Assembly: GCF_036588685.1 (NCBI RefSeq)
Contig: NC_086376.1
Location: forward strand, 40,672,001 to 40,736,000
Origin: Mytilus trossulus
Taxonomy: Eukaryota
Direction of reading: 5' to 3'
Length of the DNA: 64,000 nucleotides
Of this stretch, positions 1,216 through 48,749 are shown piece after piece; within the stretch, counting starts at the first letter, position 1, and the number at the start of each line of letters is the position of its first letter. The notes beneath the pieces are model-generated. The model worked only from the letters and a program-made list of their open reading frames with translations. It did no database searches and was not told the origin of the DNA. Made by a program: the position numbers and the translations under genes.

Positions 1216-1865
1216 TTACAAACTTTGTCGTCTCCTACAACCATGGCATCCTTTTATGATCTTGGAACCGACTCTGTTCATTTGATGTGCAGCTACTTTT
1301 ATGGAAACAATGTAAAACTCCATGAAGACGTTAATACATACGGATACCAATGCTAAACCAACAAAAACATAGATAGATGTCACTATAAAATATTTCGTAT
1401 GGGCTGGTGTTATGTCGCCAAAGCCAATCGTACTCACGGATATAAAAGTAAAATAAAAGGCATCTAAATAGCTCCAATCTTCCCAACGTGTGTACATCAA
1501 TGCTCCGAGAAAAAGGTAAATGAATAAAATGATAACTGGTACAGCTAAAGGAAGCCTATTTTCTATTTCCTTTATTAATGTTTCATCCTTATCTTCCCAA
1601 ACAATTTCTATATCATTGTTTTCCTTTTCTGTATGTTCGGTGGAAAGGGCAACACCATTACGTTCCTTCTTAAAGGTTTCCCCATCAGCAGTTTGCACAT
1701 TCTTAGCATAAAATCGTTTTACTCCAAAATAGAAGAACTTAATGACTGTTGTTAATTTTTTACCAATTTCTGCTAAGACTCTGAAAGCTAGTGGAATTCC
1801 AAAAATTGCATAAAATATTGCAATTACTTTTCCAGTATCAGTCCTAGGGTAAATATCACCATAGC
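1216..1865 (-). CDS. K2P potassium channel gene 1, exon 2 (M2, M3, P2, M4); spliced product 338 aa
   Basis: Acceptor TTTACAG|GC TAT completes GYGD; YAIFGIPL; P2 STIGFGD; 367+650=1017 nt in frame. Confidence 0.93.
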
Positions 1866-2425
1866 CTGTAAATAAATATACGAGGTTTGATATGAGTTTA
1901 TTTTTTATTTTCACAAAATATTTTCAAAAATATGAATTGACTTGCATACAGACATGTTCATCCCTTGATTTCGACTACCTGTCTTTAAAATCAGTGCAAA
2001 AGGTATAGGCATTCATTTTGATATGAGGGATATGAAGATACACAGAAACGTTCAGTCAGATAGTTTGTTTAAAGACTGAAACTTTCTCGTTTAACATAAC
2101 CTTCTCTTTCCCTATGTTTCGGTTATAGTATTTATGTCTTTCTCCGACTTGAGGTTTCTTTTGTTGAACCATTTATATTTTGTTAACACCTTTTTTCAAA
2201 CTAGATAAATAAAAGAGGGACGAAAGATACCAGAAACACAGTCAAAATCATAAATCGAAAATAAACTGACAACGCCATGGCTAAAAATGAAAAACTTACA
2301 AACAGACAAACAATAGTACACATAGAATAATAAACGATGAATTGAAACAAGTTTTAAAGGTTCATAATCATAGATTGATCTTCATACGGGTGTCTTAACT
2401 CTAATGTTAATGAAATAAGACATAC

Positions 2426-2792
2426 CTATTGCTGTATAAATAGTTCCACAGAAAAACAATGCTTTCCAGAAATCCCATCTTTTTCCATGATTTTTTTCAA
2501 AGTTATCAGCATCAAATTTATTCATCAGAGTAACAATTTCATCTCTTAAATTTTCAAACTCCGAACTGTTCAAGGACACAGTTAAGTTCAATAACAGCTG
2601 AACCATATTCTTGTGCTTAGGTTCTTTTGCTAATAAAAGTTCGTCTTGATACGGTGTCTCTACGTGGACGAATATAACAGCTCCAGTAAAACTGTATACC
2701 ATAAGTAAAATAATTAAACCAGTGAAAGATTTTAAACCGTTGTAAAATTGTCCTATAACATTTTTCGCTTTCGAACGAAACCCTTTTGTCAT
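2426..2792 (-). CDS. K2P potassium channel gene 1, exon 1 (M1, cap, P1)
   Basis: ATG at 2792; M1 helix; WDFWKALFFCGTIYTAIG; donor ATAG|GTATGT at 2426/2425; 367 nt, phase 1. Confidence 0.92.
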
Positions 2793-5156
2793 TTTGCACG
2801 TTATTGACAGTGTAAAGATAATAATTTGTAGTATTCAGTATTTCAGTATTTTTTCTTTATATCGGTATCAACTGAAAATATACTTTGTCTCGTTTTATTT
2901 CGAGTATATCAAATGGTAATGTTCCCATAGTCGACCACACAATGAATAGTGTGTTTTCCTCTTTGCCATTTGCACAAGATTTAGACGATTAAACGACCAT
3001 ATTAAGTGATATTTTTATACATTAATGGACGCTTTTGATATTGACATTAAATGTTTAATGACATCAAGGGAATCGTTTAATATGTGATGCAATCATCAGA
3101 CAATTACGAATACGACATCTCTTGGGTCAGTGAAAAATAAAAATAAAAATGTTATCACACTATTCCTACTAATTACTCCCCTTTGCTATTTCAAACAAAT
3201 TATTATGTAATCGAGAGATCAATTCAAAGCTCTTTCGAATACTTGTATATGCTTTTTATGAATTGACAATGCACTTAAAATAAGTGCGTGCTATGCTAAG
3301 TAGGGTTTCAACAGATAACTTGTTGATTTATCAGATTCCATAGTCTTAATTATTATCCAGGTAAATTTTAGGGAAATACTCTAATGATTTAACTTTATCC
3401 ATAATATTTTCCTGTAAGGTGTAAATTGATCTTTAAAATAATGATCAAGCTAATGATACGTAAAATGAAGTGCAAAAAAAAATTCCATAGGTGCATTTTA
3501 TTTGTCTCTACTTGACATGCATTACACCACATCTTCCTATATTTAATTACTATATCTGACCTATCTGACCGCGCAAAGAGTTGATTGTTCACTACCTAGC
3601 TCCTGACTTGGAACAGCCACAGAGAATGTGGCGGGTGTTTAACGTGTAAGTGGGTACATAACCCTCCACCTAATCATGGGACAGTGGTGCAGCAGACCAA
3701 TACAAGAACTGTATAAAACAATAAACAAACAACGCACACGATCAGCAGTAACAAACAACAACCACTCAATTACAGGCTTCTAAATTGGGAAAGGCACGAA
3801 TAAAATGTTTCGGGGTAAAACATGATAATTCCCATGTATACGGAATTGGTTTTGATCAATATTCAATCCCAGTGAATCTCCTTATTTTGTATTATTTCTG
3901 AAATTCATAATTTAGGCTATTGACGCAATTTAATATATCATGTCTTTGTGCTTTTCCTTCCTTAGTTTTGTTGTGCATTGTTATGCGATTTCTTTTGATT
4001 TCTTTTGGTTTTTAACCCTTTAAAGCATCCACATGACTCTAAAAAAGAACACCAAAACCAACTAAATCAACTATTAAATCCAATAATTCAATAGATATAA
4101 GTAACTTAAGAATAAACTAGAAAAGTATGCTTCCGTGTTAAGACGAAAACATATGCATTGTTTTACTGATAATTCCGAAGAACATTCCTTTCTCTTGATG
4201 AACGAACAAATGTTTTCTTTGGAATATTTAATGCTATTTTTTTCAAAGTGAAAAATTTCAAATATTCTGCAATACAGCTTACACTGTGAATAGTCACAAT
4301 ACTTTATTATTACTATAGTTAGAAGGAAATTAAGTTCAAGTGATGTTTGTTTCAATAATTTTTCGGTCGTAAATATTGTATTAAACTGGCCAACGACTCA
4401 AATTCTGTTATAAACACTATTAATAATTGCACATTCCAAAGTAATACGTATTTGTGTCACGGAAATGAATGTCACTCGTTATAATAATTTCTAAAAAAAC
4501 ATATATCTCTGAAGTTCCAAGCATGGTTATTAATCTCTGAAAAACTTGGCGTTTTATACATTACTGCAATTATGTTTGTCTGTATTTATACTTATCGTCA
4601 AATATGTATATGTTTTATCTCTATTGTAATAACACCATTTTTTTTCACAGAATACGACTGCTACGAAAGGTTAATCCCTCAATCCAACAAAATAAGACTA
4701 TTGTTTTAGGATTTGAGATGTAATGAAACTCGACAAATTTCTTGTTTAAACTATGTCGGGTCACAGCCAGATAAATAACATTGAGAAATAATTTTGGTAG
4801 CATTTTATTCTATGAAAATATTCACAAGACATGACATTCTGCACGATTCCTCAAGGATTACACATTGACATTTTGCAAATACTCCTTCAAACACAGTTAC
4901 TAATGATGAGCTATACTTTCCACATTTTCCCACTCATTCTCTCACACTAGGACATTTTGACCATATTTCCAAAGTCTGAGTCTGATTCATACATTAATAT
5001 TATGCACATCTTTTTCACAAGTTGCTGTTCATACCAGATTAACAAACGTGTATGTAATACAATTCGTTTTAATATACTTCTTCTTAAACTATTTTGTATA
5101 TTATTGGTCCATTTAATGCCTTCTCCTTTCCATAACACAAAATGATCCAAAATCCC

Positions 5157-5531
5157 TATTGAAGGTCTAAATTCTTACACATTGTCTTCTGCTTCCAAAA
5201 CGACATCCTTTCTTTACGGTAGATTTTACGACAAATTGAAGGTCTAAATTTATACACTTTGTCTTCTGCTTCAAAAAACGACAACCTTTCTTTACGGTTT
5301 ATTTTACGACAAATTGAAGGTCTAAATTTATACACTTTGTCTTCTGCTTAAAAAAACGACAACCTTTCTTTACGGTTGATTTTACGACAAATTGAAGGTC
5401 TAAATTTATACACTTTGTCGTCTGCTTTCACAAAGACAACATTTGTTTACGACAGATTGCAGGTCTAAATTCATACACTTTGTCTTCTGCTTCCACAGCG
5501 ACAACCTTTCTTTACGGTAGATGTTACGACA
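5157..5531. repeat. Tandem repeat (5 copies, 65-78 bp) of the last codons and stop of K2P gene 2
   Basis: G(A/C)AGGTCTAAATT units start at 5161, 5238, 5316, 5394 and 5459. Confidence 0.88.
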
Positions 5532-6120
5532 TCCATTTGATGAATTGCTAGTTTAATGGACATTATATAAAAGTCAATTAAAACATTTATACACATTGAC
5601 ACCAATGCTAAACCTATAAAAACATAAATTGAAGACACTATAAAGAATTTTGTATGCGCTGGTGTAATGTCTCCAAAGCCGATAGTGCTAACTGATATAA
5701 AAACAAAGTAAAAAGCGTCTAGAAAGCCCCAATCTTCCCACAACGTATACATTATGGCTCCAAGAAATATGTAGATGACTAGAATAATTATTGGCACTGC
5801 TATAGGAAGTTTGTTTTCGATTTCTTTTATTATTTTTTCTTCCTTATTTTCTTGTTCTATTTTTATTTCGCTTTTGTCTATTTCTGATAGTTCGACGTTT
5901 TCAACGTGATCTGCTTGTTTATCTCGAACGGTGTATCTGTTGTTATTTCGCCCATTGCATTTAAAACATTTTTTCACAAGCAAATAGAAAAACTTGAGAA
6001 TTATCATCAACTTTTTTCCAAGCACAGCTAAAACTTTCATGGCGAGTGGAATTCCAAATACAGCATAAAATATAGCAGCAACTTTTCCAGCATCTGTTTT
6101 TGGATAGATGTTACCATAAC
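5471..6120 (-). CDS. K2P potassium channel gene 2, exon 2; spliced product 338 aa
   Basis: Acceptor TTTCAG|GT TAT GGT AAC (GYGN); P2 STIGFGD; 650 nt; ends RRQSV*. Confidence 0.93.
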
Positions 6121-6758
6121 CTGAAATAATAATTTTTGAAAATTATAAAATATAACTACATTTCATTGTCATTATATTGATATAGATAAAGATAAGATAT
6201 ATTGTTTTACCGGTTAAGGGCCCAAAATGGACTTGAAGGCCGTACTTTAACCTATAATGGTTTACTTTTTAAATTGTTATTTGGATGGAGAGTTGTCTCA
6301 TTGGCACTCACACCACATCTTCCTATATCTAATTAGGGAGTTTTAGAGAATACCAGTATAAGAAAAAAGAACAATTCAATATGATTAGCATTGATATATA
6401 ATATATATACATCTTGTACACAACATATATACAACTACAATACAAATATAGATATGTTGTTATATATAATTGTTTTAGGATTGCCAGGTGAAGTAGTTAA
6501 TCATTCTTCTCTAATTCTATGGAAATTTATCCCTTTCCGAACCCATTGTATAAAAAAATATAATCAACGTGTGGTTTCTGGTGATCTCAAAAGATCATTG
6601 GATGATTTCAAGGGTCATGACCTTTTAAGCTAACTGAATGAATCAAAATTTGATAACAGGTGTTAATGAAATTGACAACTTCGTGCAATGTGAAAGGCAC
6701 TCGAAGGGGATTTTCGGTCAACAAAAAAAGAAAATGTCTTTTTAATCATTAGAGAAAC

Positions 6759-6921
6759 AGATTCTTACATAGTTACTCGTGGATTATCGGATTTATCCAA
6801 TCTCGATAGTTAAATTATAAATTTTAAAGTCCTCGCCGAGGCGGCTCGGACTTTAAAATTGATAATTTAACTATCTCGATTGGATAAATCCGATAATCCA
6901 CTGGTGTCAATGTAAGAATCT
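6759..6921. mobile_element. Hairpin MITE (~163 bp) in intron of gene 2
   Basis: Near-perfect palindrome AGATTCTTACAT...ATGTAAGAATCT with ~75-bp arms. Confidence 0.8.
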
Positions 6922-7919
6922 ATATATAACGGTGCTAAACTGAATATGCTAGTGAACAGAAAATCAATCCAAAAGAAATGTAAAAGAAAATTCAATTACA
7001 TCCTAATGACATATTCGGAAATTAATTTGAAAATGCATCAGGTGTATGACATTTACAAGATGCTGCAAATCATTGTTTTTAATTCTGTTTTTGGACATTT
7101 TTATCTCAGTAGAAACATTCCACACGTGACACCAAGCCATGGTCGATTTTTATTTTAGATAAAAATGTCCTCCGCCGGTTTAAAATTTTCTTTAAAATAC
7201 ATGTTAAATTGAACTACATGTATTTAATTTAATTAAAAACTTGTTTCAGCAGCAAAGTGTACTGCTTATTTCAAATGTCAAATTATATAAAACTCTTCTC
7301 AAGTACTAGTACATAGTTTATATTAGAAATCTCTCTCAAAATGTTTCAATAACTTTTAAATTGTGCCTGTACTTTCTAAGATCATTTACAAAGCTCTTAA
7401 ATTGAAACCCTGGCTGAACAAATCTTACAGAAGTGAAATTTGTGTTAAAATTTCATTTGAACTTCTATTTTTGTTGTACATACATAGTGTAAATGCCAAA
7501 TGGGGGTTCGAGCATTCTAACTATTGTGTGCTTTCACAAGCTTCGAATTTGAATTTTTAAACGAAATATTGGTCTGGAAAAGATTTTGAAAATTATAAGA
7601 AACAAATGAAGTAATTAGCATATCCTTTTTATATTGATACATTTATGTATTGTACCAAATACACACAATCACTTATTATACTTTCATATATAAACAAAAA
7701 CATGTTGCCATCTATTGTTTTTATAGAAATAAGTGTGGCACAGATGTCGCTTACTCGATGACCTGAAACTTGAAATTTCATTCAAACATTTTATGCCTAG
7801 GTGGAAACAAGATTTTAAACGGTGTAGTAATTATTCATCGGTACACTTGATATCTTTCCTGTGGGCGGTTGAGTTGACAAGATATTTTACAACTTATGTA
7901 CTTAAAATGTTATACTTAC

Positions 7920-8286
7920 CTATTGTTGTGTAGATAGTGGCACAGAAAAACAAAGCTTTCCAGAAATCCCACGTGCTCTCAGAATTCCCCTCCATATCTC
8001 CAAAGCCATACTGATTTATCAGATCGAAGGTTTTATTTCTTAGTATTTCAAAGTCAGAGTTGTTTAACGCCACTGTTACGTTTGTTAAGAGTAGAATAAG
8101 TTCATCATGCTCTGGTTTTTCTTTGATTACAATTTTCTGTTCATACGGCGCTTCCAATTCAACAAATATTACGGCTCCAATTATATTGTAAAGCACCAAT
8201 AAAATAATCAAACCAGTCAAAGATTTCAAACCTTTATAAAGTTTTCGAAATATGGTAGTAACTTTTGAACAAAATCCTTCAGCCAT
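7920..8286 (-). CDS. K2P potassium channel gene 2, exon 1
   Basis: ATG at 8286; WDFWKALFFCATIYTTIG; donor ATAG|GTAAGT; 367 nt, same length as gene 1 exon 1. Confidence 0.93.
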
Positions 8287-9323: not shown

Positions 9324-9985
9324 TCATAAACAATAGTATAATGCTACAAGTACAAATGTAACATACTCCAGACCTAATAGAATACATAGGAAGTCTTTAT
9401 ATTCACTCAGTTTACAAAATTTCAGTACTTTTAGTATTTTCATTTCTTTCCGTGTGAGGTCGCATATTACCGTACTGAATTGCAGCATTGACGCAATCAA
9501 GCCAATAGGTAAATAAATACACGAGCCGATGTTATATTTATCGTCTGGTGGTATAATGTCGCCAAACCCAATGGTACTTAGCGATATAATCACCAAATAA
9601 ACAGCATCCATGTAGGTCACGTGTTCCCATGAGGAATATATAGATCCTCCTATCAAAATGTAAACAAATAAAAAAGCTACCGATGCCAAAAAGGGAATTA
9701 TGGAATTATGATTGTCTGTACGTTCTATTCTCATATTTGAACCAGTTTCAATACTTTCGGCATCAAGATTCAAATTGATGTTGTCCCCTTTTTGTGTGAC
9801 ATGTCCGTATTTGAGATAGGGTGGCTGCAATCGATTTCGTACCGTAAGATATATGAAACTGACAAAGGCGGCAAGTCTTTTACCAATGCCGGCTATGACA
9901 ATCATGGTAAGTGGTATTCCTACTGATGAATAAACCATAACAAAAATCTTTCCACCAGTTGTAGTTGGAGTAATATGGCCATATC
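9324..9985 (-). CDS. K2P potassium channel gene 3, exon 2; spliced product 315 aa
   Basis: Acceptor TTGTAG|GA TAT GGC CAT (GYGH); YSSVGIPL; P2 STIGFGD; 286+662=948 nt in frame. Confidence 0.88.
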
Positions 9986-10909: not shown

Positions 10910-11195
10910 CTATTGTTGTAAGTGTTGTGACAATGAAGAATAGAGATTCCCAGTAGTGCCAGGGATTAGTGTCCTCATCCTGAATTGGAAACTCATTTCC
11001 AGAGATATTATTACTACTCAGCGAACTGTACACTTCTAAATCTCCATATTCTCGGTAAACCTCATATGTATCTCCAATACGTAGATAGATAGCGGCACCA
11101 ATGATAATATATACACATAATGTAAAGACAACAAAAGGAAACGACTTGGCGATATGGAGAACTCTTTTCGGATTTAGCTTGAACTCACACGCCAT
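10910..11195 (-). CDS. K2P potassium channel gene 3, exon 1 (short cap)
   Basis: ATG at 11195; M1 YIIIGAAIY; WHYWESLFFIVTTLTTIG; donor ATAG|GTATGT; 286 nt. Confidence 0.88.
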
Positions 11196-14385: not shown

Positions 14386-14415
14386 ATACACACACTTTTT
14401 GATTTAAAACATATT

Positions 14416-15005
14416 TTAATTTTGATACTGCTCAACATTTGCATTATTTTCTTTTCGTTCTAAATGTTCAGTAGATTGAGATTTCACATTATTGTATTGG
14501 AGTGCCGCATAAACACACATCGACAATATTGTCAATCCAATAAGAATATAGATGACCGATCCAATATAATATGTACTATCAGATGGTAGAGTTGTACGGG
14601 CACCAATGGTACTAAGTAATGAAAATACCATATATACAGCATCAACGTAGCTCACGTTTGTAAAAGACGAATAGATTACGCTTCCCATTAGAATATAAAC
14701 TACTAAAACCGCCATTGATATTATAAGAGGAATAATGGATCCCTCATAATCTTTCAACACTGTATTTTCATATGTTTCGGTTTCCATTAAGATATTCATT
14801 TTGTCATCTTTTTGTAAACTGCGTCTTTTTCGTGCAATTCGCTCCTGGGATCGATTCCGCATAAGAAGACACACACGTGTGACAAAGGTGGATAGTCTCT
14901 TGCCAAAGTCGGTAATGATTAGAGCAGTTAGTGGTATGCCTATTGCTGAATAGGTCATAACAAATACTTTTCCTGGTATAGTATGAGGAGTAATATGACC
15001 ATATC
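14416..15005 (-). CDS. Divergent K2P channel gene 4, exon 2; spliced product 270 aa; non-canonical P2 STIGART
   Basis: Acceptor TTGTAG|GA TAT GGT CAT (GYGH); YSAIGIPL; 223+590=813 nt in frame. Confidence 0.85.
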
Positions 15006-16109
15006 CTACAATTAAAAAAGTGTATATTTTATTTACCTTCTTTTTCGGTGTCTGAAACTTTTACGACAAAGACAACTGTTTGATTTATACCATCTTAAAA
15101 AAGGATGGATTGAAATGATATATGTCTAGTTATATAATTAAAAGCAACCGCGTGAAGACCAAGATGTACATTTTATACGTTGTTAGTAGGCGAGTGGTTA
15201 ATTTCCATTCACGGTTAGTAGGGGTGTAACGTTACGTCCCTTTGTAAAAACAACACAGTGTTGATGAAAATCTGAAAGGTTTCATCAGACGAAGATATTC
15301 AGTGATGATGAAAGATTGAAATATGTAAAATTCATATAACACACTAAAAAAGCTTACAAGTTATTTTTGTTGACATTTTCTTTTTGTACAGACCAATGTA
15401 TGAGTAAAGTAGGTCCTTTAATTTTGAAAACTTAATCACTTTTATAAGCCACGTAGTCTTCAATATCACATTTTAGATAGTCGGTAAAAGAAATGCGTAA
15501 CATATAGCCCACACTGAGTTACTAATATATTTAGTGCAAACGATCTAACCCTCCGAATATCGAAACATAATTAATGACACATTTATTCACAAATGCACAA
15601 CAGAAGCTTTCATTATTGATTGATATGGTATTTCAAATGTATTGTAGTGTACTAAGTATATGGAAAGGAAACGAGCGCTGTACGGAGATTGATTCTGACT
15701 CTTAGGATTCTGATTCTGAAACTGGTGAAGATGCCGAAACGAAAGACAGTTACCGACGACTGGTCTCCTGCCTATAAAACAGAACAAACTCACAGACTGA
15801 TTATCAATGTAATCAATATGTAATCACTTGTATGAAATTGAACTTAATTGCACTGCTTAACTTGATTATTGGGCGTCATAATTGACAATAAAAAACTTTT
15901 TAATTGTATCTGTATTTGGTAGAGCGAATACAATTAAACGATGACTTTCGGTACTATTGATTTTTATTTTCAGTTTAATAAATCAAATCAAATCAAATAT
16001 TTTATTTTAATGAGTTCAAAAGACTGACTCCGACTGAAGACTTAACTTCAGTCGACACATTATAAAAATAGAAAATGTTTACAGGGTGCCACAAAATTAA
16101 GATTTTTAC

Positions 16110-16810
16110 TTATGTTCTTAATTCACGATGTTCAAACGAACATAACATATTTATGTGCTAACTTGCTCTATTTTTCTTGTACAACTCTGCTTCTAATTTC
16201 TGTTCTTAACTAACTCATATTGTATATATGTATATAAATAAGACAAGAATAGTTCTGATACTAACAGGCACGGTGACCATTTCGATTTATTCATCATAAT
16301 TCACAATCTACTAGTAATCAATTTTCTATAAATGTCTTTTCATTTCATTTCATCAAACAATAATGTCCTAAACATCTCTGCGTAAACACTTCATCATATC
16401 AAATCTATAAAATAAACATTACAAATCAGTATACTATATATACACATTTAACAATACACAAAAAAAAAAATTTGTCTGCAAGTCGAGTGGTCACCGCCCA
16501 GCCTTCGATAAACTTAAAAACCCGTTTTCTATCTATTATATACCTTACTAATTTGCATAACTAGTTTATTCTATTGTTAAACAATAGACTAAAATAGATC
16601 CGAAAATTCATACGCATACCGCACATAAATTTATTTATGTTCTTAATTCACGATGTTCAAACGAACATAACATATTTATGTGCTAACTTGCTCTATTTTT
16701 CTTGTACAACTCTGCTTCTAATTTCTGTTCTTAACTAACTCATATTGTATATATGTATATAAATAAGACAAGAATAGTTCTGATACTAACAGGCACGGTG
16801 ACCATTTCGA
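16110..16810. repeat. DIRS 3' terminal block: B2 (16110-16285), spacer, A2 (16467-16634), B1 (16635-16810)
   Basis: 176-bp B copies and 168-bp A copy; A2 abuts B1, giving the circle junction. Confidence 0.92.
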
Positions 16811-16838
16811 CGTACAAAGAAAGCAGTCAGTGAAAATG

Positions 16839-17862
16839 TTATAAACCTAAATTCTTAGAAACTGATAATCGTTTTTCTAAACTATCTGATACGTAACCAT
16901 CTTTAGCTAAATCAGATTTCCATCTTCCATGTATTTTAAAAAGTCTATCTGGTATATCATGTTTAGCGGCCGCTGTGGCACCGCCTGCTCTGAAACTGTG
17001 TAAACCAAATTTGTTTACATTCAAACCGATTTGTGATAAGGCCTCTTTGACTAACTCTCTTGCTCGAGTATACGAAATTTTTACATTTTTACTTCTCAAT
17101 ATAAAAGAATTAGTTTTCTTTAAAAAAGACAATGCACGAAATATAAAGAATTCAGAATTATTCTCAATCTTAGCTAAAACTAGATAACTTTGCAAAAGCT
17201 TTACAGGACAGTAAGAACTACATTGTATCTAATCTAGAAATGACAACATTATTACCATGTCTATAACAATCTGTTTTGCTCTTACGAATAAAAATGTTGA
17301 CATGCGAAGTATGAAAAACTATGTCTTTAGCTGTGATGTTGCATAACTCATTGAAACGCAAAAATCCTGTATACATCAACGAACACATTAACAATAAACG
17401 CACTTCTTTTAGTGAATTACGATTATGATATTTATCAAACAGTTTAATCATTGAATTCGAGTCAACTGGTTCTTTTTTCTTTTTCGGACGAGATAGTATT
17501 CTCTTAGCACCTTCTAGTATACTCTTGACTAGTTCAGATTCGCATGGATCAGTTACGCCAGCAATACGATGCGCCCATTTTATGCTATAAAATGCTGTAT
17601 CTACTGAACTAAAACCTTCGGATGACTCTATCAAATGTTGCAAGTATAAACCCACATAAAGTTTATTACACGGAAGTACTGAAGTTATCTCTTTGTATTT
17701 TTGTGTCCACTTTAGAAAACGTTTGAAACCTCCAATATATTTTGTAACAGTTGTCTTGGCCCTCGAATCTAAGACAGTTGCATTTAGATTTGAGTAAAGT
17801 AATCTGAGTTCTGTGTGCTTAACCAAACTTAACTGTGACCAGAATCCAGTCGAAAAAATGTT
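16839..17862 (-). pseudogene. DIRS/PAT tyrosine recombinase, frameshifted near 17219-17227
   Basis: GFLRFNE, RKSKTD, HSFR, HGRW, GY catalytic motifs split over two frames; removing 7 nt restores ISRLD-SSYCPV. Confidence 0.87.
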
Positions 17863-18092
17863 CTAAAAATAGATATACAGTAATTACAATCTTTTTGTAA
17901 AAAGATAAAAATTCTATTACATAACATATTTACCTGAATCAAAGCATATCAATCAGGTCCAGTGACCATACAGTATTACTAAAAGATTTAGTCCAGTGAC
18001 CAAAGAGTATAACGTCCAGTGACTTCCAACACACACATATTACATCAATATTCATATAGTAAAAACAATTCTGTAAATAAAAAGACTTAATA

Positions 18093-20444
18093 TTAACAAT
18101 ATGAAGCGTCTAACAAAACAGCTAATACAGATCCTTTGAAATCTCCTCTCACAAAAACAGAGTTCAAATTATTTCCAGATTCGAAAATTCTCTCTGGTTC
18201 GTTGAACTGAAGCACTTCAATTATGTACTTTCTATATTTTAGACCAGTGTCAAAAATCAACGGCCAAAATGGCGATGAAGGCCAATTCGGAACTATCAAA
18301 GTTCCTTTAGCTTTACATTTTACTAAATGATTTATAACTCTGCTAACCTCAGTTACTGGAGGTACTAGCAAATTGTTCCCACCGGACCAGTCGCACGTGA
18401 AAGCGTCGACGCATAAAGAACCTGGGTTCCAATACAAAGAATTAAACTTTTGTAATTTCGTATTTTCAAAGCTAGCAAACCTATCCACTGAAAATGGACC
18501 CCATAAATCATTCAAGAATGTGAAAAATTCATCTGAAATACGCCAGTCGTCAATATCGACAATTCTACTTAGCATGTCTGCTTGTTCATTCTGTTCCCTT
18601 GGAATCCAGTTAACAAAAATAGTAATATCATTTTTACGACAACAATCGTATATTGATAAAGCTAAAGACTGTAATTCTGGTACTTTACTACCCTTGTGAA
18701 CTATTGTTACAGCGTTTTGATTATCTGTATAAAACGATACCGTGCAATGTTTAAGCAAACGTGCAAAACTTAATATAGACAACTCTATTGCTTTGACTTC
18801 CCTCCAAGTGGAGCTCTTTAATTTCTCATCGTCAGACCAAGATTTATGCATAATCTGTTTTAGATTATCAATATATCCAGCAGCCCCTGTATTGCTTGCA
18901 TCTGTAAATATGTAAAATTCAGAATCCAATCCTAACAAAGAAACTGGTTCTAACTTACAAATGCTATCTCTCCAAAATATCAGATCTCTGATACAAGCGT
19001 TACAATGATTTATATTAATAGATTGGTTCCAATCTTGTCTTAAATTTATAACTTCAAACAAACCTCTCGACATGATCTGTGTAATGTGACCTAAAGCAGG
19101 CGTAAAAGAAATGATTTTACCAGCTGCTTTTGCTAACAATCTTACTTTCACTTTGCAGGAACTGTTAAGTATAACATTAACTAAGTCAATTAAATCATTC
19201 TTTTTTCTATCTGGTATATCTAGTTTACATATGTCTAAATTCCATATAAAACCTAACCACTCTAATGTTTGTGTTGGTGTCCAGTGACATTTATCTCTGT
19301 TTGGTACGAACCCCGATGATATAAGATCTGACTTTACTATATCAGAATGCATTTTACATGTGTTTTCATTATCGGCTAAACCGAACCCGTCGTCTAAATA
19401 AACAACGACTTTGATTCCTTTCTTTCGCCAATGTTTTACTAAAGGTCTAACTACTTTAGTAAAGATATATCCGCTAGATTTCAAACCAAAAGGAAGTACA
19501 GTAAAAACGAAAAACTTTGTTACACCTCCTAATTTCCAGGAGAAACCTAAATATTTCTGATGTTCGTTAAAAATATCAATATGATGATATCCTGATTTCT
19601 TATCAAAAACGAATCCAAAACAATTAGAAGATAAATACTGTTTAACTACTTTCCAATCTTCAAATTTAATCTTGCTATCAACTACCTGTTTGTTTACATG
19701 TCGTAAATCTAAAATTAACCTGTGTTTATTTTTCGCAGTCGAGACGGTCAAAGGATTAACCACGTGCGGTCTACTCGATACCTCTCGTATCAAGCCCCCT
19801 TTCATTAAATCTAAAATAGCTTTCGAGACAAATTCATTGTTATCAAATGCTGATTTGTTATTTCTTAAGAATATTTCTTCAGGCTCGTTAAGCAAAAGAA
19901 TTTTGTAACCATCTGTAATAACATTCAAAATGAAATCTGAAGCATTAATTTGTTTCCAAAAGTTAATAGATTTTTTCAAACGACCTTTAACATAAATATC
20001 AGAATTACAATTTTCATATTCATAAAATGTTTCAACAATATCATAATCTTGTACCTTGAAAATGTCACTGTTATGATCTTTAAGAAGAAGATCCTCTGGA
20101 AGGTCCTGTCCTTGCCTTTCCCTTCCTGCAGTCTCTTGCCCAGTGCCCTTGCATGCCACAGTTATAACAGACGTCTGAGGTCTTGAAGCTATTTTGGTTG
20201 CCGAAACTTTGGCCGCTGGCGGCCAAGCCCCCTCGAAAGGGCTGCAGGCGAAATGTAGCATCAGAACCACCTGTACCATTATGTGCCATTTGAGCTGTTG
20301 AACCAGATGCTTCTGCCGGACGCTTTCTACTGCTGCGTTTATCTGTTTTCTCTGCTTTGATCTTTTTAACTGCCCTGTTATCTGCGGCGCGTATTCTTTT
20401 CTCGTCTTCCGAGTCACTGGCCACTTCATCTGAAAGGTATTCAT
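18093..20444 (-). CDS. pol: DIRS/PAT reverse transcriptase - RNase H - adenine methyltransferase-like polyprotein
   Basis: RLILDLR, GYHHI, LPFGL, YLDD; RNase H FTDAS/REVKAI/TDNQ/ADMLSR; C-terminal DRFAS...DAF...VPP...VPNWP. True start uncertain (overlaps gag). Confidence 0.9.
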   Translation of the reverse strand: MNTFQMKWPVTRKTRKEYAPQITGQLKRSKQRKQINAAVESVRQKHLVQQLKWHIMVQVVLMLHFACSPFEGAWPPAAKVSATKIASRPQTSVITVACKGTGQETAGRERQGQDLPEDLLLKDHNSDIFKVQDYDIVETFYEYENCNSDIYVKGRLKKSINFWKQINASDFILNVITDGYKILLLNEPEEIFLRNNKSAFDNNEFVSKAILDLMKGGLIREVSSRPHVVNPLTVSTAKNKHRLILDLRHVNKQVVDSKIKFEDWKVVKQYLSSNCFGFVFDKKSGYHHIDIFNEHQKYLGFSWKLGGVTKFFVFTVLPFGLKSSGYIFTKVVRPLVKHWRKKGIKVVVYLDDGFGLADNENTCKMHSDIVKSDLISSGFVPNRDKCHWTPTQTLEWLGFIWNLDICKLDIPDRKKNDLIDLVNVILNSSCKVKVRLLAKAAGKIISFTPALGHITQIMSRGLFEVINLRQDWNQSININHCNACIRDLIFWRDSICKLEPVSLLGLDSEFYIFTDASNTGAAGYIDNLKQIMHKSWSDDEKLKSSTWREVKAIELSILSFARLLKHCTVSFYTDNQNAVTIVHKGSKVPELQSLALSIYDCCRKNDITIFVNWIPREQNEQADMLSRIVDIDDWRISDEFFTFLNDLWGPFSVDRFASFENTKLQKFNSLYWNPGSLCVDAFTCDWSGGNNLLVPPVTEVSRVINHLVKCKAKGTLIVPNWPSSPFWPLIFDTGLKYRKYIIEVLQFNEPERIFESGNNLNSVFVRGDFKGSVLAVLLDASYC

Positions 20445-20901
20445 TCACCGTTCTCCAACCACCCTCGGACTTATCCGCGATTCTAATTAATTTATTTCTC
20501 TTCTTGAGCTGGACAGACGAATCTTCTAAAACCCTAACTGCCTTTTTAGGTCGATTCTTCTCAATGTAGCCTATTGCCGTGCTTATACTGTCTTGAATGT
20601 CAGAGTTAAGCTCAAATTGTAACTGATTCCCCTTAAATTTAAAGGTATTCTCTGCCTTCTTTGCTCTCTTTACTAACGTCTCTGTAGTATCGGAGAAATT
20701 CTTCTCTATACCGGAAAGTTTATTATTGAAATAAGTTGTCATCAAAGAAAACAAATCTGCGTTTGAAACTTCAGGTGCCCTATCTTGCTCTGAATTACCT
20801 TTTCTCTTTGTTGGTTCAGCAGCAGAACGTAAAGCTTCAATTGACTTGTCAGGAGACTTGGTTAATTCTCTATCGTCGAGGTCTAGCTCTGAATCGGACA
20901 T
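20080..20901 (-). CDS. gag: DIRS/PAT gag-like protein with CCHC zinc knuckle
   Basis: 273 aa ORF; CYNCGMQGHWARDC; IRIADKSEGGWRTVNEY motif; ATG 4 nt after repeat A1. Confidence 0.88.
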   Translation of the reverse strand: MSDSELDLDDRELTKSPDKSIEALRSAAEPTKRKGNSEQDRAPEVSNADLFSLMTTYFNNKLSGIEKNFSDTTETLVKRAKKAENTFKFKGNQLQFELNSDIQDSISTAIGYIEKNRPKKAVRVLEDSSVQLKKRNKLIRIADKSEGGWRTVNEYLSDEVASDSEDEKRIRAADNRAVKKIKAEKTDKRSSRKRPAEASGSTAQMAHNGTGGSDATFRLQPFRGGLAASGQSFGNQNSFKTSDVCYNCGMQGHWARDCRKGKARTGPSRGSSS

Positions 20902-20905
20902 CTTG

Positions 20906-21073
20906 AAAATTTGTCTGCAAGTCGAGTGGTCACCGCCCAGCCTTCGATAAACTTAAAAACCCGTTTTCTATCTATTATATACCTTACTAATTTGCATAAC
21001 TAGTTTATTCTATTGTTAAACAATAGACTAAAATAGATCCGAAAATTCATACGCATACCGCACATAAATTTAT
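20906..21073. repeat. DIRS split direct repeat A1 (168 bp; copy A2 at 16467-16634)
   Basis: Direct comparison by eye, no mismatches seen. Confidence 0.92.
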
Positions 21074-21669
21074 ATACATATGAAATAATAAAAATGATAA
21101 ATTTTACTTACATACAATAACCACTTTTAAAATACCTAATATTTACGCTATAAACATTAACGGATTAAAAAAAATTATTAGAAATGAAATATAGATGTGA
21201 AGCATTCATGAACATAATCCTTTGTAGAGTTTAGATTAAAAAGTGACCAAAAAAGTAAAAAAAAAAAATGTGGGCATATAGAATACAGAGTTATGCCCCT
21301 CCTCCCTCCAGACTCCATTAAACTTCCTGGTTTGTAAAATATACAGGAAGTTAATAATAGAAATCAAGGTCATTATTTGTTATTAATGAGATTCAATAAT
21401 ATATAACATTTGGCTTGAATTTAAATGATTGTTAATAATAAAATATTTATTTTCGAATTGTCCATGATAATTGCTCTATTTTTCACGAGATTATTTCAAA
21501 TAGTTGCTACATGAATACATGCATGTTGATCGGTTCTTATTACGATTGATTGATCATAGTTGTTTTACATCGCATCAGCGTGAAAAGGCTATAACACACG
21601 GCGATATTAACCCCATGTATTTGAAATTGAAATTTATTGCACATATATACATACACTGGTGATACATAC

Positions 21670-21892
21670 CTATTGTTGTTATCATTGCAACAAAGAAGAA
21701 AAGCGTTTCCCAGTAATTCAACGTATTATCTTCCTCACATTGATTTTCGTTGCTATTTCTTCTATGATCTTCAATGTTCATGTAAACAGCAGCACTCGTG
21801 AAAGTATACACACATAGTATAAAGACAATACCTGGTGGTGACTTGGCGATACTCAGAAGTCGTTTTATATATACAGTGACCTCAAACTTCAT
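21670..21892 (-). CDS. Divergent K2P channel gene 4, exon 1 (almost no cap)
   Basis: ATG at 21892; LNYWETLFFFVAMITTIG; donor ATAG|GTATGT; 223 nt; similar to gene 3 exon 1. Confidence 0.85.
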
Positions 21893-41873: not shown

Positions 41874-42460
41874 GTACATCTAAGGGGTGTGAATAATGCG
41901 AAGAATATAGAACGTCTGAGGGGTGTGAAGAATGCGAAGAGTATAGTACATCTCAGGGGTGTGAAGAATGCGACGGATATTGTACATCTCGGGGGTGTGA
42001 CGAATGCGAAGAATATAGAACGTCTGAGGGGTGTGAAGAATGCGACGGATATTGTACATCTCAGGGGTGTGAATAATGCGAAGAATAGAGAACGTCTGAG
42101 GGGTGTGAAGAATGCGAAGGATATAGTACATCTCGAGTGTGAAGAATGCGAAGGATATATTACATTTCAGAGATGTGACGAATGCGAAGAATATAGTACG
42201 TCTCAGTCGGGTGTCGAATGCGAATAATATAGTACGTCTAAGAGGTACGGAGAATGCGAAGAATATAGTACGTCTAAGAGGTACGGAGAATGCGAAAAAT
42301 AATTATATAGTACATCTAGGGGGTGTGAAGAATATGAAGAATATAGTATATCTTAGGGGTGTTAAGAATGCCAACAATTATACAAATAGTACATCTCAGG
42401 GCTGTGAAAAATGCCAATAATGTAGTACATTTCAGGGTGTGATGAATGCCAACAATATAC
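41874..42460. repeat. 36-bp minisatellite (~16 copies) downstream of K2P gene 5
   Basis: Unit GTACATCTCAGGGGTGTGAAGAATGCGAAGAATATA. Confidence 0.9.
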
Positions 42461-43064: not shown

Positions 43065-44059
43065 CTACGGCTTTGGTGTGTTTTCTTTTGATCTGCTCTC
43101 AGATGAATCTAAAGAATGTTTTTTTGCCCTCTTTAATTCGTTTTGAATATTAGTTTCAATGTTTTTCTTTACTTCTGATATTTTACCCTTCGCACTGGTC
43201 CCTGCTTTCGACACTTTGTCTTTTGCTTTATTCATTTCTTTGCCGACAGAGGCCATCTTTTCTTTTCCCGCCTCAACAACTCGTTCTCTAGCTTTATTCA
43301 TATGATCTTTCGCTTTGTCTATTTGAACAGTGAAGAATTCGATTCCAACATTAACGCACATGGAAACTAAGGAAAGACCCATGAATAAATATATTGCGGA
43401 GATGAGAAAATATTTCGGATGCTCAGGTACTACATCCCCAAATCCAATAGTACTTATAGATATAAATACAAAATATATGCAATCCAAGAAATCCCATGAT
43501 TCCCAAAATTTGTACATGATTGCACCAAGAAAAATATAAATCAGTAATATTATGCAAGCAATTGATATTGGCAAGTTGAAAGAGTCATCAATCTCTATGT
43601 CATACATAACTTTTACGCGATCTGTTGAAGACAAAGTCGACTGGACATCAGGTGATTCATCTAAAGAATCGTCACTTCCGGTTTTTGATTTTAAACTCGA
43701 ATTTGGAGAAGGACTTAATCCAGATTGTTTTTTTACAAACACTATTGACTCTTCGCTCTTGCTTTTTTTCTTTGTAGATTGGTCTATTTCGTTACTACAT
43801 GTTCCATTTTCTGCATTCTGAACGCTCTGTTTATTACTTTTTCTACTGCTCAGGCGACTTCGGACTTGTCTAATTACTTTTTTGCGGAAGGTTCCAGTGT
43901 AGTAGTATCGACGTGCACGTGCATACATCCATTTAAGAAGGACAGTAAATCGTCTACCAACTTCTGCCAATACTAGCAACGCGAGAGGTATGCCCAATAC
44001 AGCATAAACCATGGCTATAAATTTGCCAATTCCAGTAAGCGGTACTATGTTTCCATAAC
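43065..44059 (-). CDS. K2P potassium channel gene 5, exon 2; spliced product 486 aa
   Basis: Acceptor TTACAG|GT TAT GGA AAC (GYGN); YAVLGIPL; long Ser/basic M2-M3 loop; P2 STIGFGD; 466+995=1461 nt in frame. Confidence 0.95.
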
Positions 44060-45107: not shown

Positions 45108-45289
45108 AATTAAACTCAATGACATCATAGATACCAGGACTAAATTTTGTATATACGCCAGACGCGAGTTTCTTCTACAAAAGACTCATTAGTGACTCGA
45201 ATCCAAAAAAGTTAAAAAGGCCAAATAAAGTACGAAGTTGAAGAGCATTGAGGACCAACATTACAAAAAGTTTTGCCAAATACAGCTTA
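45108..45289 (-). mobile_element. Truncated retrozyme with 13-bp TSD, in intron of K2P gene 5
   Basis: GATGAAGAGTTGT at 45095-45107 and 45290-45302; mutated core CUAAUGA. Confidence 0.78.
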
Positions 45290-48283
45290 GATGAAGAGTT
45301 GTCTTATTGCCAATCATACTATTTATTTTCATATGAGAATAACCCTGTTTATTTGGCAATAAACAACATACAAAGATGTACAACACAAAAATGTATATTA
45401 TTACTGGAAAGTCAAGATGCCACCATGACATCATAGTGCCCAGTACAGATACGTTAGATCTATATGTTACCCACATCGATCTAAACACAAACAGAACTTT
45501 ATTGACGTCTATCTGCAGATAACTGCCGTCCTTGGAGGATTCTCAGACAGCTGTCAGGTGCTATAGAGTTGTCTGTATGATGCGTGTTGTTGTTATTTTT
45601 TCTGCACCATCGGTAGCAATAAGAATTAAACGTTCCATTAAACACTAATATTTTTTGTTATTTTCTAACTGCAAATAGCCAAATCTAATTAGAGAGATCA
45701 ATAACTTAAAATAACATTTAAGCGCTAACTGATATATAGAGGTTAATGACCTCTAGCTATAGAGTTCATCATCATTATCTTATCTCCGACAGATATATTC
45801 ATCCTCTATTGTAGATGATTAAACGGTTTCTGTTATTTTTTATACGAAAAGGATGAATGTTATCAAACATTACTGTGGAATAATATATAAGTAATGTTTT
45901 CCTTCAAACTGACACTATTTAGAGAATTTTTTGTTTTTAATATTGTCTTATCTTTTTCACAAATTCAAACTTTATTCTTGAATATCGAAACCATGGAATC
46001 ATTATAATACAAATTAAATGACTTCATTTTTTCTTTTTAAAATAGTTTTTATTCGGATTTGCACTTGTGTCAGGGTGTAGTTAAAGATATAGTTAAAGTT
46101 AAGATTTGTTCTTGTAAAAAAAGTCAAAGATATTTACGATGCGTACAAAAAGAAAAGTCAAAAAGTGTAAACTTAAACAAAATCCATGTCTAATGGGGTA
46201 AAATTCTCGCCACCCCTATTGTATTTCTCTTTTTGTCGTTTCCAAATTTCCGGTTGGAGAATTGTGTGTATGCTTGTTTAGTATTAATCCATATTCTTTA
46301 CAATTTTATACGCGAATCTTGAGTCATAACAGTAAAAGATAAGCGATATTTAAAATCATAAGTCGAAAAGAAACTGTCAAAGTCGTGGCAAACAACGAAA
46401 AACAACGATGAGATCATCAGTACACAGAACACAACAAAGAAAACTAAAACCCAAGCAACACGAACCCCACCAAACCCGTGGGTGATTTATTATGCTCTAG
46501 AAGGGTACTAAGCAGATTCAGCACCTTTTCTTGTCGCTCATGTAGGTACGAATCCAATGAAAAGTCTTATTCGGTAGGTAACATTCGAGGAAAAGTGGGA
46601 TGCATTGATGTGTCCGATCATTTTGAGATATTACATCTTGTTATCATGGAAAGTTACGGAAATTAAAACGAATAGGGAGATGTATCTGTTGTCTGTGAAT
46701 TAATCAGTAACCTAAGATTTTGGATGGAATACATGTACTTTTTATTACCAATCTGGAAACAGTACAATCTTCTTTTGTACCCCAACAATCAGTACGCTGA
46801 GAATTCCCATGGAATGAATGTTACGTTTTATCGCCAATTTAAAAAGCAATGTGTCTATGCAGGTGCGAAGTACTTGTCTCCTAACAACCAGAGCCATTAG
46901 AATTCCCATGGAATACATGTTTCGTTTAATCGCAAATCCAAAAATCAATATGTCTATACAGGTGCAATGTATTACAGTACCATTACAACACTTGCATTGT
47001 TTGCACCAGATAAGAAACACCAATCCGAATTATTTATCGACTATATCTATCAGATAATAGTTTCGAGTATGTTTTATTAGGTAATAACGACCTAATTGAT
47101 ACTTATTACCTAGCAATATACGTTACAGATGCGATATTTTCATGTGGCAGGGAAAAGGTAAAGAGAAACCTCAAACAACTATTCCCTAGATTATTAATTG
47201 ATATATATCCCTACAGTGTTAACACAACACTTATTAATTATATTCTCATCAGGAGCATTTGTAATTAGCATACAAAGCAGCCTGGCACTATCTAAATGTC
47301 AAGTGTACATGACTGTCAAATATCATCAGCGATTTATTATCGGTTCGTTATATATACATCCCTTCTTTCTTAATAAATTTCACAAACAAAAGTGAAGAGA
47401 CCTATGTGTTTTGTTAACTAATAAAAAGAAGCCCCCCCCCCCCAAATTGAACCTTTGGTTTCCTCTAAATCAATTTGCAATGATGATAGCGGCAAGCTCG
47501 AGTGCCATGAAATATTGTACTTAGAAGATGATATCCTCTTTTTCAATCATTATAAAGATAAGCTTCTATCTTTCGATCTAAATTTCTATTTATATGCAAT
47601 TAAATCATATAAAATATGTTCCTGCTTTATAAATTTATAAACCTCTTGAAATTATAATGTCAAACTATTGATTTCAAAGAACAAATTTAGAAACTCCAAC
47701 GTTACCAGACATTGTTATCTATTCAAATGAAAATTTTGGAAAACTCGTTATTATACTTAATGTGACAATGTACGGGACTTACTCAGCATACGAGACATTT
47801 ATGCATTGTTCTACTGAAAGAATAAATAAGTATGAACATACAAAAGGGACGCTCAAAACTTAATTCGAAGAAAAGACGGACAATGACCAAAACTAAAAAA
47901 GAAAAGACAAATAACAATCGACTTCTAAAACAGAACAAAACTGTAAACATCATCTTCAAAAGCGTTAATTTTACTGTATTTTATATATAGTTAACGTTTT
48001 ATATTCTAAATAAAACCGTAAAAATTTAACTGCACCTGAGCATTTCAATAAGTCATGTCTAATCAGTGTTACTCGAGGACAAAACATTTAAAATCCCAAA
48101 ACCTGAAATCAACTTTGATGAGCTATTAAAATCAAGGACACAATAGTCAAACCAGAACAGGGAATCAGAATTGTGTATAATGGGATCGATTTCTATTATA
48201 AAGTTACCTCCTTCCCTGTAAGTAGTAATGCAACCATAAGGAACTGAAACTTTCAATGAATGCACACATCCATTGATACTCAC

Positions 48284-48749
48284 CAATAGTTGTATAAATA
48301 GTCCCACAGAAGAACAAGGCGCTCCAGAAAGTCCACACAGTGGCTGGACCAGCAACTGTTCCACGACTGCGGACCTCTGATTCATATTGCATTAATAACT
48401 TTCTAGTTTGATTAATCCACGTGTCATTGTATGTTGTATAATTCACCCAGAAATTTTTTGCTTCCACGTAAAAAAATCTAATATAATTTTCTCTGGTCAT
48501 TTTCATATCGTGCTTCGCTTCTAACTCATTTTCAGATTCAATACTTTGGAATAGTAATGCGCCTAAGATACTGTATATAACTAACAATATAATTAATCCA
48601 CCAATGGATTTACAAACACGGTAGAACTTTATAATCGCATCTTTTATCCTACTTAATATCATTTGCATGTTAAATTGCTTTTTAACTCCGAGTTCGTCAT
48701 TTTGTTGTTCAAATTTTCCGTTCTCTTCATCTCCGTTATTATTCTCCAT
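48284..48749 (-). CDS. K2P potassium channel gene 5 (TWK/KCNK18-like), exon 1
   Basis: ATG at 48749; YSILGALLFQSIE; WTFWSALFFCGTIYTTIG; donor ATTG|GTGAGT; 466 nt. Confidence 0.94.

What the first reader, a model, noticed from the sequence alone, without database searches (positions are those of the whole stretch)
1216..48749. Tandem expansion of five K2P channel genes diverging at the pore and cap
All five lie on the same strand and have one phase-1 intron at the identical position in the P1 Gly codon. Genes 1 and 2 have identical exon lengths (367/650 nt). Genes 3 and 4 form a second, more derived pair, and gene 5 looks like the conserved parent. All five reading frames and splice sites are intact while the filter, cap and tail differ. 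Inference: a lineage-specific set of channel subunits, possibly heterodimerising, with new selectivity or gating.
Basis: partly seen in the sequence, partly recalled or inferred. Interest (0 to 1): 0.72.

Follow-up and report, generated by a model that had tools for sequence, protein, structure and literature searches.

The report
Mussel K2P array with altered pores
Mytilus mussels carry a tandem row of five two-pore potassium-channel genes: one copy is frameshifted in this genome, one has an alanine in place of a key filter threonine (predicted to remove voltage gating), and one has lost most of its cap loop and its second potassium-filter motif yet still shows signs of selection, likely as a silent partner subunit.

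Summary
The five minus-strand, two-exon K2P genes are real, with the stated exon lengths and intron. Three corrections. Gene 3 is not intact: a 13-nt deletion shifts the frame inside M4, so its odd tail is a frameshift product; orthologs in M. coruscus and M. galloprovincialis are intact. The shared P1 intron is family-wide. The array is shared across Mytilus (eight consecutive genes in M. coruscus, gene 4 four times), and the tree does not show gene 5 as the parent. What stays unusual: gene 1, well constrained, has Ala at the P1 S4 threonine in five Mytilus species; Cys there abolishes voltage gating in vertebrate K2Ps. Gene 4 has a 20-residue cap loop and P2 TIGART instead of TIGFGD. It still looks spliced, folds like a K2P and is weakly constrained, but its P2 differs between lineages and some copies are broken. 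Best reading: birth-and-death expansion giving working leak channels (genes 1, 2, 5) and a likely non-conducting modulatory subunit (gene 4). No function was measured. Atypical K2P filters are known from C. elegans, so this is a new variant of a known kind.

The parts
2426..2792 (-). g1 exon 1 (M1, 64-aa cap loop, pore helix 1); P1 reads TAIGYGD, with Ala121 (2430-2432) at the S4 threonine position
   Evidence: identical to RefSeq M. trossulus P0230
1216..1865 (-). g1 exon 2 (M2-M4, canonical P2 TIGFGD)
7920..8286 (-). g2 exon 1 (64-aa cap loop, canonical P1)
   Evidence: a contig starts at the donor
5471..6120 (-). g2 exon 2 (canonical P2)
   Evidence: two contigs break at the acceptor
10910..11195 (-). 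g3 exon 1 (41-aa loop rich in N/G/S/D/P in place of the cap; canonical P1)
9324..9985 (-). g3 exon 2; canonical P2; 13-nt deletion near 9495 shifts the frame in M4; the ancestral frame would end near 9412, the shifted frame ends at 9324
   Evidence: intact in P0126, in the g3 part of P0228 and in contig X19 record 12
21670..21892 (-). g4 exon 1 (20-aa M1-P1 loop, no cap helices in the model; canonical P1)
14416..15005 (-). g4 exon 2; P2 reads STIGART (about 14593-14613), GFGD lost; Ala at TM2.6
   Evidence: three contigs break at the acceptor
16105..21076 (-). DIRS/Ngaro-like tyrosine-recombinase retrotransposon inside the 6.7-kb g4 intron (zinc knuckle, RT/RNase H/Dam-like, recombinase ORFs; 99% identical split direct repeats); the class name is recalled
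48284..48749 (-). g5 exon 1 (71-aa cap loop, canonical P1)
43065..44059 (-). g5 exon 2 (long M2-M3 loop, canonical P2, long tail); slowest-evolving member

Best explanation
This is a tandem array of five K2P genes shared among Mytilus species, in which genes 2 and 5 keep canonical filters and likely work as ordinary K+ leak channels, gene 1 has Ala at the P1 S4 threonine and is predicted to be a leak channel without filter (ion-flux) voltage gating, gene 3 is frameshifted in this assembly, and gene 4 has lost most of the cap loop and the P2 GFGD motif and likely acts as a non-conducting subunit that would damp partner K2P channels by pairing with them. Shown: gene structures, the frameshift, filter and loop sequences, conserved order in M. 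coruscus, a rate gradient g5<g2<g1<g3<g4. Inferred: birth-and-death turnover; splicing of g2, g3 and g4 (contigs from runs only guessed to be RNA); continued weak selection on g4. Predicted: g4 folds and dimerises like a K2P; a K2P filter is built from two P1 and two P2 loops, so two Gly-Ala-Arg loops would not coordinate K+, and a heterodimer would carry one defective loop of four. Untested: any current, any heterodimer, any co-expression. Odds by part: array history about 0.9, g1 without voltage gating about 0.6, g4 as silent modulator about 0.4.
For: Synteny: M. coruscus CAC5414235-242 run g1, g2, g3, g4 x4, g5 on contigs of one length. Clade: g1-g4 100/99, g3+g4 100/99. Rates, window versus M. 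coruscus: g5 34/485, g2 29/338, g1 42/338, g3 50/259, g4 62-65/264 residues differ. dN/dS between paralogs: g1/g2 0.18 (0.11-0.26), g3/g4 0.45 (0.32-0.66). g1: TAIGYGD in all five named Mytilus species; 6 of 555 filter-motif matches in 419 (redundant) fetched proteins have Ala there and 5 of them are g1; only 2 of 81 family-conserved columns differ from M. coruscus against 40 of 257 others (p=0.0006). In TREK-1, TRAAK and TASK-1/2/3, Cys at this Thr abolishes voltage gating, and GFG mutants of TREK-1 are non-functional (PMC4771873, passages). g4: every copy with a readable P2 lacks Phe and Asp, so that loss predates the M. coruscus split; since then replacements are more conservative than a neutral simulation (p=0.003-0.02, three comparisons) and rarer in membrane/pore segments than in loops (p=0.002, 0.022, 0.074); contigs in 3 of 4 laid runs break at the g4 acceptor with 29-136 further letters. 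AlphaFold2 model: pLDDT 85, four helices and two pore helices, no cap helices; all 39 listed PDB fold matches are K2P channels. Predicted g4 homodimer scored 0.38 against a best control of 0.00, runs agreeing in at least 83% of contacts, pLDDT at least 68 (the mark was reached by 21 of 30 solved pairs and 0 of 23 single chains in microbes, and by 17 of 29 eukaryotic pairs, animals 7 of 16, but only 1 of 7 without an older solved relative; K2P dimers are solved, so this may be from memory).
Against: g4 constraint is weak: the conserved-column test gave p=0.086, 0.025, 0.15, 0.22, 0.32 and 0.11 in six g4 comparisons, and no p-value is corrected for multiple tests. g4 has changed 41 of 80 family-conserved columns. 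Its P2 differs among lineages (GART, GARA, GGRA, GVGA, SVSA). The M. galloprovincialis RefSeq model reads g4 out of frame just before P2 (P0228), M. coruscus copy P0127 lacks large parts, and one unnamed ENA gene call suggests Glu at the P1 Gly (P0209). No partner or co-expression is shown. The g1 prediction rests on Thr-to-Cys mutants of vertebrate channels, not Thr-to-Ala, and the parent channel was never shown to be voltage gated; a simulated double T103C TRAAK conducted poorly. The exon-1 side of the g4 junction is not displayed, and g1 and g5 junctions were not covered.
Confidence: 0.55

Rival explanations
1. g4, and in some lineages g3, are decaying duplicates: transcribed but functionless, with the residual constraint left over from earlier selection.
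For: Highest rates in the array; frameshifted g3 here and frameshifted g4 in the M. galloprovincialis model; a broken-looking M. coruscus copy; P2 changes differently in each lineage; a young retrotransposon in the g4 intron; M. galloprovincialis has about 20,000 dispensable genes, mostly in young expanded families (PMC7653742, abstract).
Against: After loss of the P2 Phe and Asp, g4 kept the P1 motif and the GIP hinge in all named full copies, an open exon-2 frame in M. trossulus, M. edulis and three M. coruscus copies, conservative replacements and slower membrane segments, and was quadrupled in M. coruscus.
Confidence: 0.28
2. g4 is a conducting, poorly selective cation channel: an open, cap-less mouth and a relaxed P2 would let Na+ pass and depolarise cells, as UNC-58 does.
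For: Engineered cap-less TASK-3 conducts and is poorly K+/Na+ selective (PMC6121469, section 2.2; that construct also changes GYG to GFG); natural filter variation gives Na+ permeability in UNC-58 (PMC11513965); three M. coruscus copies keep both glycines (TIGVG); all g4 copies have Ala at the TM2.6 gate position, a residue listed for 1 of 66 K2Ps (PMC6377628).
Against: In the M. trossulus and M. edulis copies the second Gly is Arg, which would place two positive charges at the mouth (inference); GFG mutants of TREK-1 are non-functional; a selected new filter should be conserved, and this one is not.
Confidence: 0.12
3. Neighbouring genes are spliced together into single-chain four- or six-pore channels, as the RefSeq models g3+g2 (607 aa) and g4+g3+g1 (869 aa) suggest.
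For: Both models exist (P0212, P0228); contigs cover much of the 1-kb g3-g2 spacer.
Against: The g3-g2 junction needs a non-canonical intron (GT...GA at best); no canonical single-intron or micro-exon route was found; in both models the first join follows a frameshift; M. coruscus has separate genes; no such joint is among those displayed (184 not shown).
Confidence: 0.04

Closest known systems
K2P (KCNK/TWK) channels, protostome clade annotated 'KCNK18-like' or 'TWK-18/TWK-7-like'
   Same: 4 TM/2 P layout, P1 intron, GIP hinge; g5 exon 2 is 42-43% identical to scallop and about 33-39% to insect proteins and groups with mollusc orthologs.
   Different: Four extra fast-evolving tandem copies; S4 Ala in g1; shortened cap loop in g3 and g4; P2 motif lost in g4. 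Orthology to vertebrate KCNK18 was not tested.
C. elegans TWK expansion and UNC-58 (PMC11513965, passages and part of Discussion)
   Same: Lineage expansion (47 genes) with atypical filter sequences.
   Different: UNC-58 has Cys at the second position of TxGYG; g1 changes the first position, g4 changes the P2 GFG itself. The mussel set is a small tandem array with copies still being gained and lost.
Silent K2P subunits KCNK7/TWIK-3, KCNK12, KCNK15 (PMC8616229, passages)
   Same: K2P-fold subunits with no current alone; an altered P2 in KCNK7 is recalled, not from a call.
   Different: These keep the M1-P1 cap domain (PMC4906011 calls it conserved in all K2P channels); g4 has 20 residues there. 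No silence has been measured for g4.
Drosophila Sandman/Galene heteromer (PMC5362267, passages)
   Same: Invertebrate K2P subunits silent alone and active together; precedent for selective pairing.
   Different: That pair makes a K+-selective current; no relationship to g1-g4 was tested, and g4 is expected to reduce rather than enable current.
Engineered S4 mutants (TREK-1 T157C, TRAAK T103C) and cap-less TASK-3
   Same: g1 and g4 are natural counterparts of these laboratory constructs.
   Different: Ala rather than Cys in g1; g4 combines cap loss with P2 loss.

Membership tests
K2P channel | Four transmembrane helices and two pore domains in one chain | tested here: met
   g1, g2, g4, g5: hydropathy, Pfam, models of g4 and g1
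K2P channel | Intact M4 (g3 in this assembly) | tested here: not met
   13-nt deletion shifts the frame mid-M4; met in M. coruscus and M. galloprovincialis g3
K2P channel | P1 signature TxGYG with the S4 threonine (g2-g5) | tested here: met
K2P channel | P1 S4 threonine (g1) | tested here: not met
   Ala in five species; GYG kept. g1 is kept as a K2P variant, since GYG/GFG, cap and constraint are intact.
K2P channel | P2 signature TxG(F/L)GD (g1, g2, g3, g5) | tested here: met
K2P channel | P2 signature TxG(F/L)GD (g4) | tested here: not met
   GART here; GARA, GGRA, GVGA, SVSA in other copies. g4 is K2P-derived and is not filed as a canonical K+ channel.
K2P channel | Helical M1-P1 cap (g1, g2, g5) | tested here: met
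   64-71 aa loops like relatives' 64-84; two helices in the g1 model, pLDDT about 57-72 there; g2 and g5 not modelled
K2P channel | Helical M1-P1 cap (g4) | tested here: not met
   20-aa loop, no cap helices in the model
K2P channel | Helical M1-P1 cap (g3 and M. coruscus g4) | tested here: inconclusive
   41-44 aa, 40-58% N/G/S/D/P against 21-29% in capped relatives; not modelled
K2P channel | Dimer assembly | tested here: inconclusive
   g4 homodimer prediction 0.38 versus control 0.00, may be from memory of solved K2P dimers
K2P channel | K+-selective background current | not testable with these tools
   needs electrophysiology
Vertebrate TRESK/KCNK18 subfamily (database label) | Orthology to KCNK18 in a tree | not tested
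   no vertebrate KCNK18 was among the sequences used
UNC-58-type Na+-permeable K2P | Cys at the second position of P1 TxGYG | tested here: not met
   Ile in all five
Obligate or silent heteromeric K2P subunit (Sandman/Galene, KCNK7 type) | No current alone, effect on co-expression | not testable with these tools
   needs co-expression

The most novel reading that the evidence does not exclude
Mytilus has evolved, in one tandem array, natural versions of two K2P constructs known from laboratory mutagenesis: g1, a leak channel with no S4 threonine in P1 and so no ion-flux voltage gate, and g4, a cap-less subunit with a dismantled second filter that selection keeps as a dominant-negative or selectivity-changing partner. 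Copy number and loss-of-function alleles of g3 and g4 would then tune background K+ conductance among mussel species.
Probability: 0.3. Interest if true: 0.7.

Novelty: new variant of a known kind. Interest (0 to 1): 0.45.

Why it matters
The cap and the S4 threonine are treated as general features of animal K2P channels, and their roles come from engineered mutants. A constrained natural S4-Ala channel and a natural cap-less subunit, next to their canonical relatives, give ready-made tests: is flux gating dispensable, can a K2P assemble and traffic without a cap, and can a pore-defective subunit be kept as a regulator. It also corrects two RefSeq fused models. If g4 is only decaying, the locus is an ordinary example of mussel gene turnover with one interesting allele in g1.

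Tried and rejected
No whole genome is held, so copies elsewhere in the genome were not counted. Run search: no RNA holder listed; all 24 runs are only guessed to be RNA and hold 7-14% of the words; 4 of 24 were laid, on 2300-22100 only. No displayed contig from a run near-identical to the window covers the g3 deletion, so assembly error, private allele and species-wide loss are not separated. A metagenome scan with the g3/g4 alignment found 168 pattern matches and no relative; the second scan gave 80 loci, of which 8 were examined and one (L001) was a g3/g4-side relative. dN/dS between orthologs was not possible (no ortholog DNA); dS between distant paralogs and to L001 is at or near saturation. 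The P1 intron as evidence of local duplication: rejected, 50 of 333 fetched gene calls start just upstream of GYG without a pore helix, the mark of this intron, including Limulus, tick, stick insect and bichir proteins; a paper search for the intron found nothing. The g3 tail as a diverged tail: rejected, frameshift. Fused RefSeq models as real proteins: rejected for g3-g2; the M. galloprovincialis joins could not be checked. His after GYG in g3/g4 as a new pH sensor: rejected, it is common in the clade. Gene 5 as direct parent: unresolved; no AU test was run. The 86-row tree is a quick tree with long-branch warnings; the 34-row tree is a finished search on a subset I chose. Earlier scan notes: nothing. 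Paper searches listed no description of this array; the library lacks most subscription papers, I saw only the top listings, and no supplements were read.
Full report
Gene models. Six-frame translation showed ten K2P-like exon ORFs on the minus strand, all matching Pfam Ion_trans_2. Built into models they give five two-exon genes, g1 to g5 from low to high coordinate, each with a GT-AG phase-1 intron in the first Gly codon of P1. g1 and g2 have exons of 367 and 650 nt. tblastn found no sixth copy in the window. g4 exon 2 is 100% identical to a RefSeq M. trossulus protein, and g1 and g5 equal RefSeq M. trossulus proteins, so the window is Mytilus, most likely M. trossulus.

Correction 1: g3 is frameshifted. 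Against g4, exon 2 of g3 lacks 13 nt inside M4. The M. coruscus ortholog continues in another frame for residues 266-292. g3 is intact in M. coruscus (P0126), in the g3 part of the M. galloprovincialis model P0228, and in a 1081-nt contig of run X19 that joins 9453-9984 to 10909-11439 and has 13 gap positions in the first piece. The shifted frame stays open for about 56 codons and begins fairly hydrophobic, so some function is not excluded. Whether the deletion is an allele, a species-wide loss or an assembly error is open.

Correction 2: the intron is family-wide. 50 of 333 fetched gene calls with a P1 motif begin just upstream of GYG with no pore helix, as expected when a gene caller reads out of this intron; they include Limulus, tick, stick insect and bichir proteins.

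Correction 3: age and parentage. M. coruscus has eight consecutive accessions in the order g1, g2, g3, four g4 copies, g5. M. edulis has g1, g4 and g5 models, M. californianus g1, g2 and g5; other members were not found there, which is not proof of absence. In a 34-row tree g1-g4 form one clade (100/99 in the group table), g3+g4 group at 100/99, and an unnamed protein with canonical P2 (P0142, about 35-40% identical, matching L001) is their sister at 100/97. Unnamed g1/g2-like proteins at 55-68% also exist; I infer these are other mussels. The g1-g4 clade and the g5 clade lie in an open polytomy with scallop, Solemya and other bivalve orthologs, so g5 is the conserved member but not shown to be the parent. 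A profile of g3/g4 against 1.84 billion representatives gave three strong hits, all from the Mytilus g3/g4 set (511-360 bits), then a drop to 193; relatives within 50% clusters would be hidden.

Selection. Differences from M. coruscus rise from g5 (7.0%) through g2 (8.6%), g1 (12.4%) and g3 (19.3%) to g4 (23.5-24.6%). dN/dS is 0.18 (0.11-0.26) for g1/g2 and 0.45 (0.32-0.66) for g3/g4. g1, g2, g3 and g5 spare family-conserved columns (p at most 0.003 against M. coruscus). For g4 that test is mostly not significant (p 0.025-0.32, six comparisons). Two other tests favour constraint on g4: conservative replacements against a neutral simulation (p 0.003-0.02) and fewer changes in membrane and pore segments than in loops (p 0.002, 0.022, 0.074). 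In the first of these g1 itself scored only p=0.07, so the test is noisy. None is corrected for multiple testing.

Expression. Four of 24 listed runs, all only guessed to be RNA and kept as contigs, were laid on 2300-22100. One contig joins the two g3 exons. Contigs in three runs break at 15004, the g4 acceptor, with 101, 136 and 29 further letters whose placement is not displayed; two of them have no mismatch to the window. Two contigs break at the g2 acceptor and one starts at its donor. I read these as spliced transcripts. g1 and g5 junctions were not covered.

g1. P1 reads TAIGYGD. The Ala stands where the S4-forming Thr is. It is present in all five named Mytilus species; of 555 filter-motif matches in 419 redundant proteins, 6 have Ala and 5 are g1. 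Schewe et al. (PMC4771873, passages) show that Cys at this Thr in P1 or P2 gives linear, instantaneous currents in TREK-1, with similar results in TRAAK and TASK-1/2/3. I therefore predict a leak channel without flux gating. The substitution differs (Ala), and a simulated double T103C conducted poorly. The g1 model keeps two cap helices at modest confidence.

g4. The M1-P1 loop is 20 residues in M. trossulus, M. edulis and M. galloprovincialis, 43-44 in M. coruscus g4, 41-43 in g3, 64 in g1/g2 and 64-84 in relatives. The model has no cap helices and matches K2P structures. P2 reads GART here, GARA and GGRA in close relatives, GVGA and SVSA in M. coruscus. Phe and Asp were thus lost before those lineages split, and the second Gly later. 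P1 and the GIP hinge are kept in named full copies; TM2.6 is Ala in all, a residue listed for 1 of 66 K2Ps (PMC6377628, passages). A homodimer prediction passed narrowly: 0.38 against 0.00, at least 83% contact agreement, pLDDT at least 68, interface on pore helices and filter; calibration 21 of 30 pairs and 0 of 23 single chains in microbes, 17 of 29 eukaryotic pairs (animals 7 of 16), 1 of 7 without an older solved relative; K2P dimers are solved, so the pass may be from memory. Against function: g4 reads out of frame before P2 in the M. galloprovincialis model, one M. coruscus copy lacks large parts, and one unnamed gene call suggests Glu at the P1 Gly.

Mechanism. A K2P filter needs two P1 and two P2 loops (PMC4906011, first third read). 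GFG mutants of TREK-1 are dead. With Gly-Ala-Arg in both P2 loops, a g4 homodimer is unlikely to pass K+. A protein that is apparently spliced, folds and remains weakly constrained but cannot conduct is most simply kept for its effect on a partner, so I commit to a non-conducting modulatory subunit (about 0.4 for this step). Decay is the main rival (0.28), a poorly selective cation channel the next (0.12): cap-less TASK-3 conducts with poor selectivity (PMC6121469, abstract and section 2.2). Read-through four-pore chains are unlikely; the RefSeq g3-g2 join needs a non-canonical intron.

Known systems and novelty. Expansion with atypical filters is known in C. elegans (PMC11513965, passages and part of Discussion), obligate heteromers in Drosophila (PMC5362267, passages), silent subunits in mammals (PMC8616229, passages), and heavy gene turnover in Mytilus (PMC7653742, abstract). 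Searches listed no account of this array; the one mussel paper returned mentions only a Kcnk10-annotated transcript raised at low salinity (PMC8774603, passages), which I could not link to these genes; its supplements were not read. Verdict: real, partly misdescribed, a new variant of a known kind, interest 0.45.

Noticed in passing
window 16105-21076: Near-complete tyrosine-recombinase retrotransposon in the g4 intron, with zinc-knuckle, RT/RNase H/Dam-like and recombinase ORFs and two pairs of 99% identical direct repeats, so probably a recent insertion; the recombinase lies in two ORFs in different frames.
   Followed up: partly
window 28318-35722 and 50333-54813: Long inverted duplication (85-88% identity, several kb) flanking g5; it could be two copies of one element and could favour inversion of the g5 segment. 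M. edulis accessions run g5, g1, g4, a different order from the window.
   Followed up: no
window 5158-5531: 78-bp tandem repeat (five copies) made from the last codons of g2 and its 3' flank.
   Followed up: partly
window 23500-25600: Degenerate plus-strand reverse-transcriptase element in several frames (zf-RVT hit).
   Followed up: no
window 39031-39587 and 41874-42459: A 27-bp satellite in two inverted blocks and a 36-bp satellite just downstream of g5.
   Followed up: no
P0128 cluster and P0228: The g2 cluster has no M. edulis or M. galloprovincialis member, and the M. galloprovincialis fused model passes from g3 to g1; g2 may be absent or moved in those assemblies.
   Followed up: no
P0212 (XP_063435694), P0228 (XP_076101234): RefSeq models fuse neighbouring genes right after frameshifts; probably annotation artefacts.
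   Followed up: partly
P0242: Unnamed 1016-aa gene call with five pore motifs in one chain; either a fused call or a natural tandem K2P.
   Followed up: no
P0353: One unnamed, distantly related K2P also has Ala at the P1 S4 position, so the change may have arisen more than once.
   Followed up: partly
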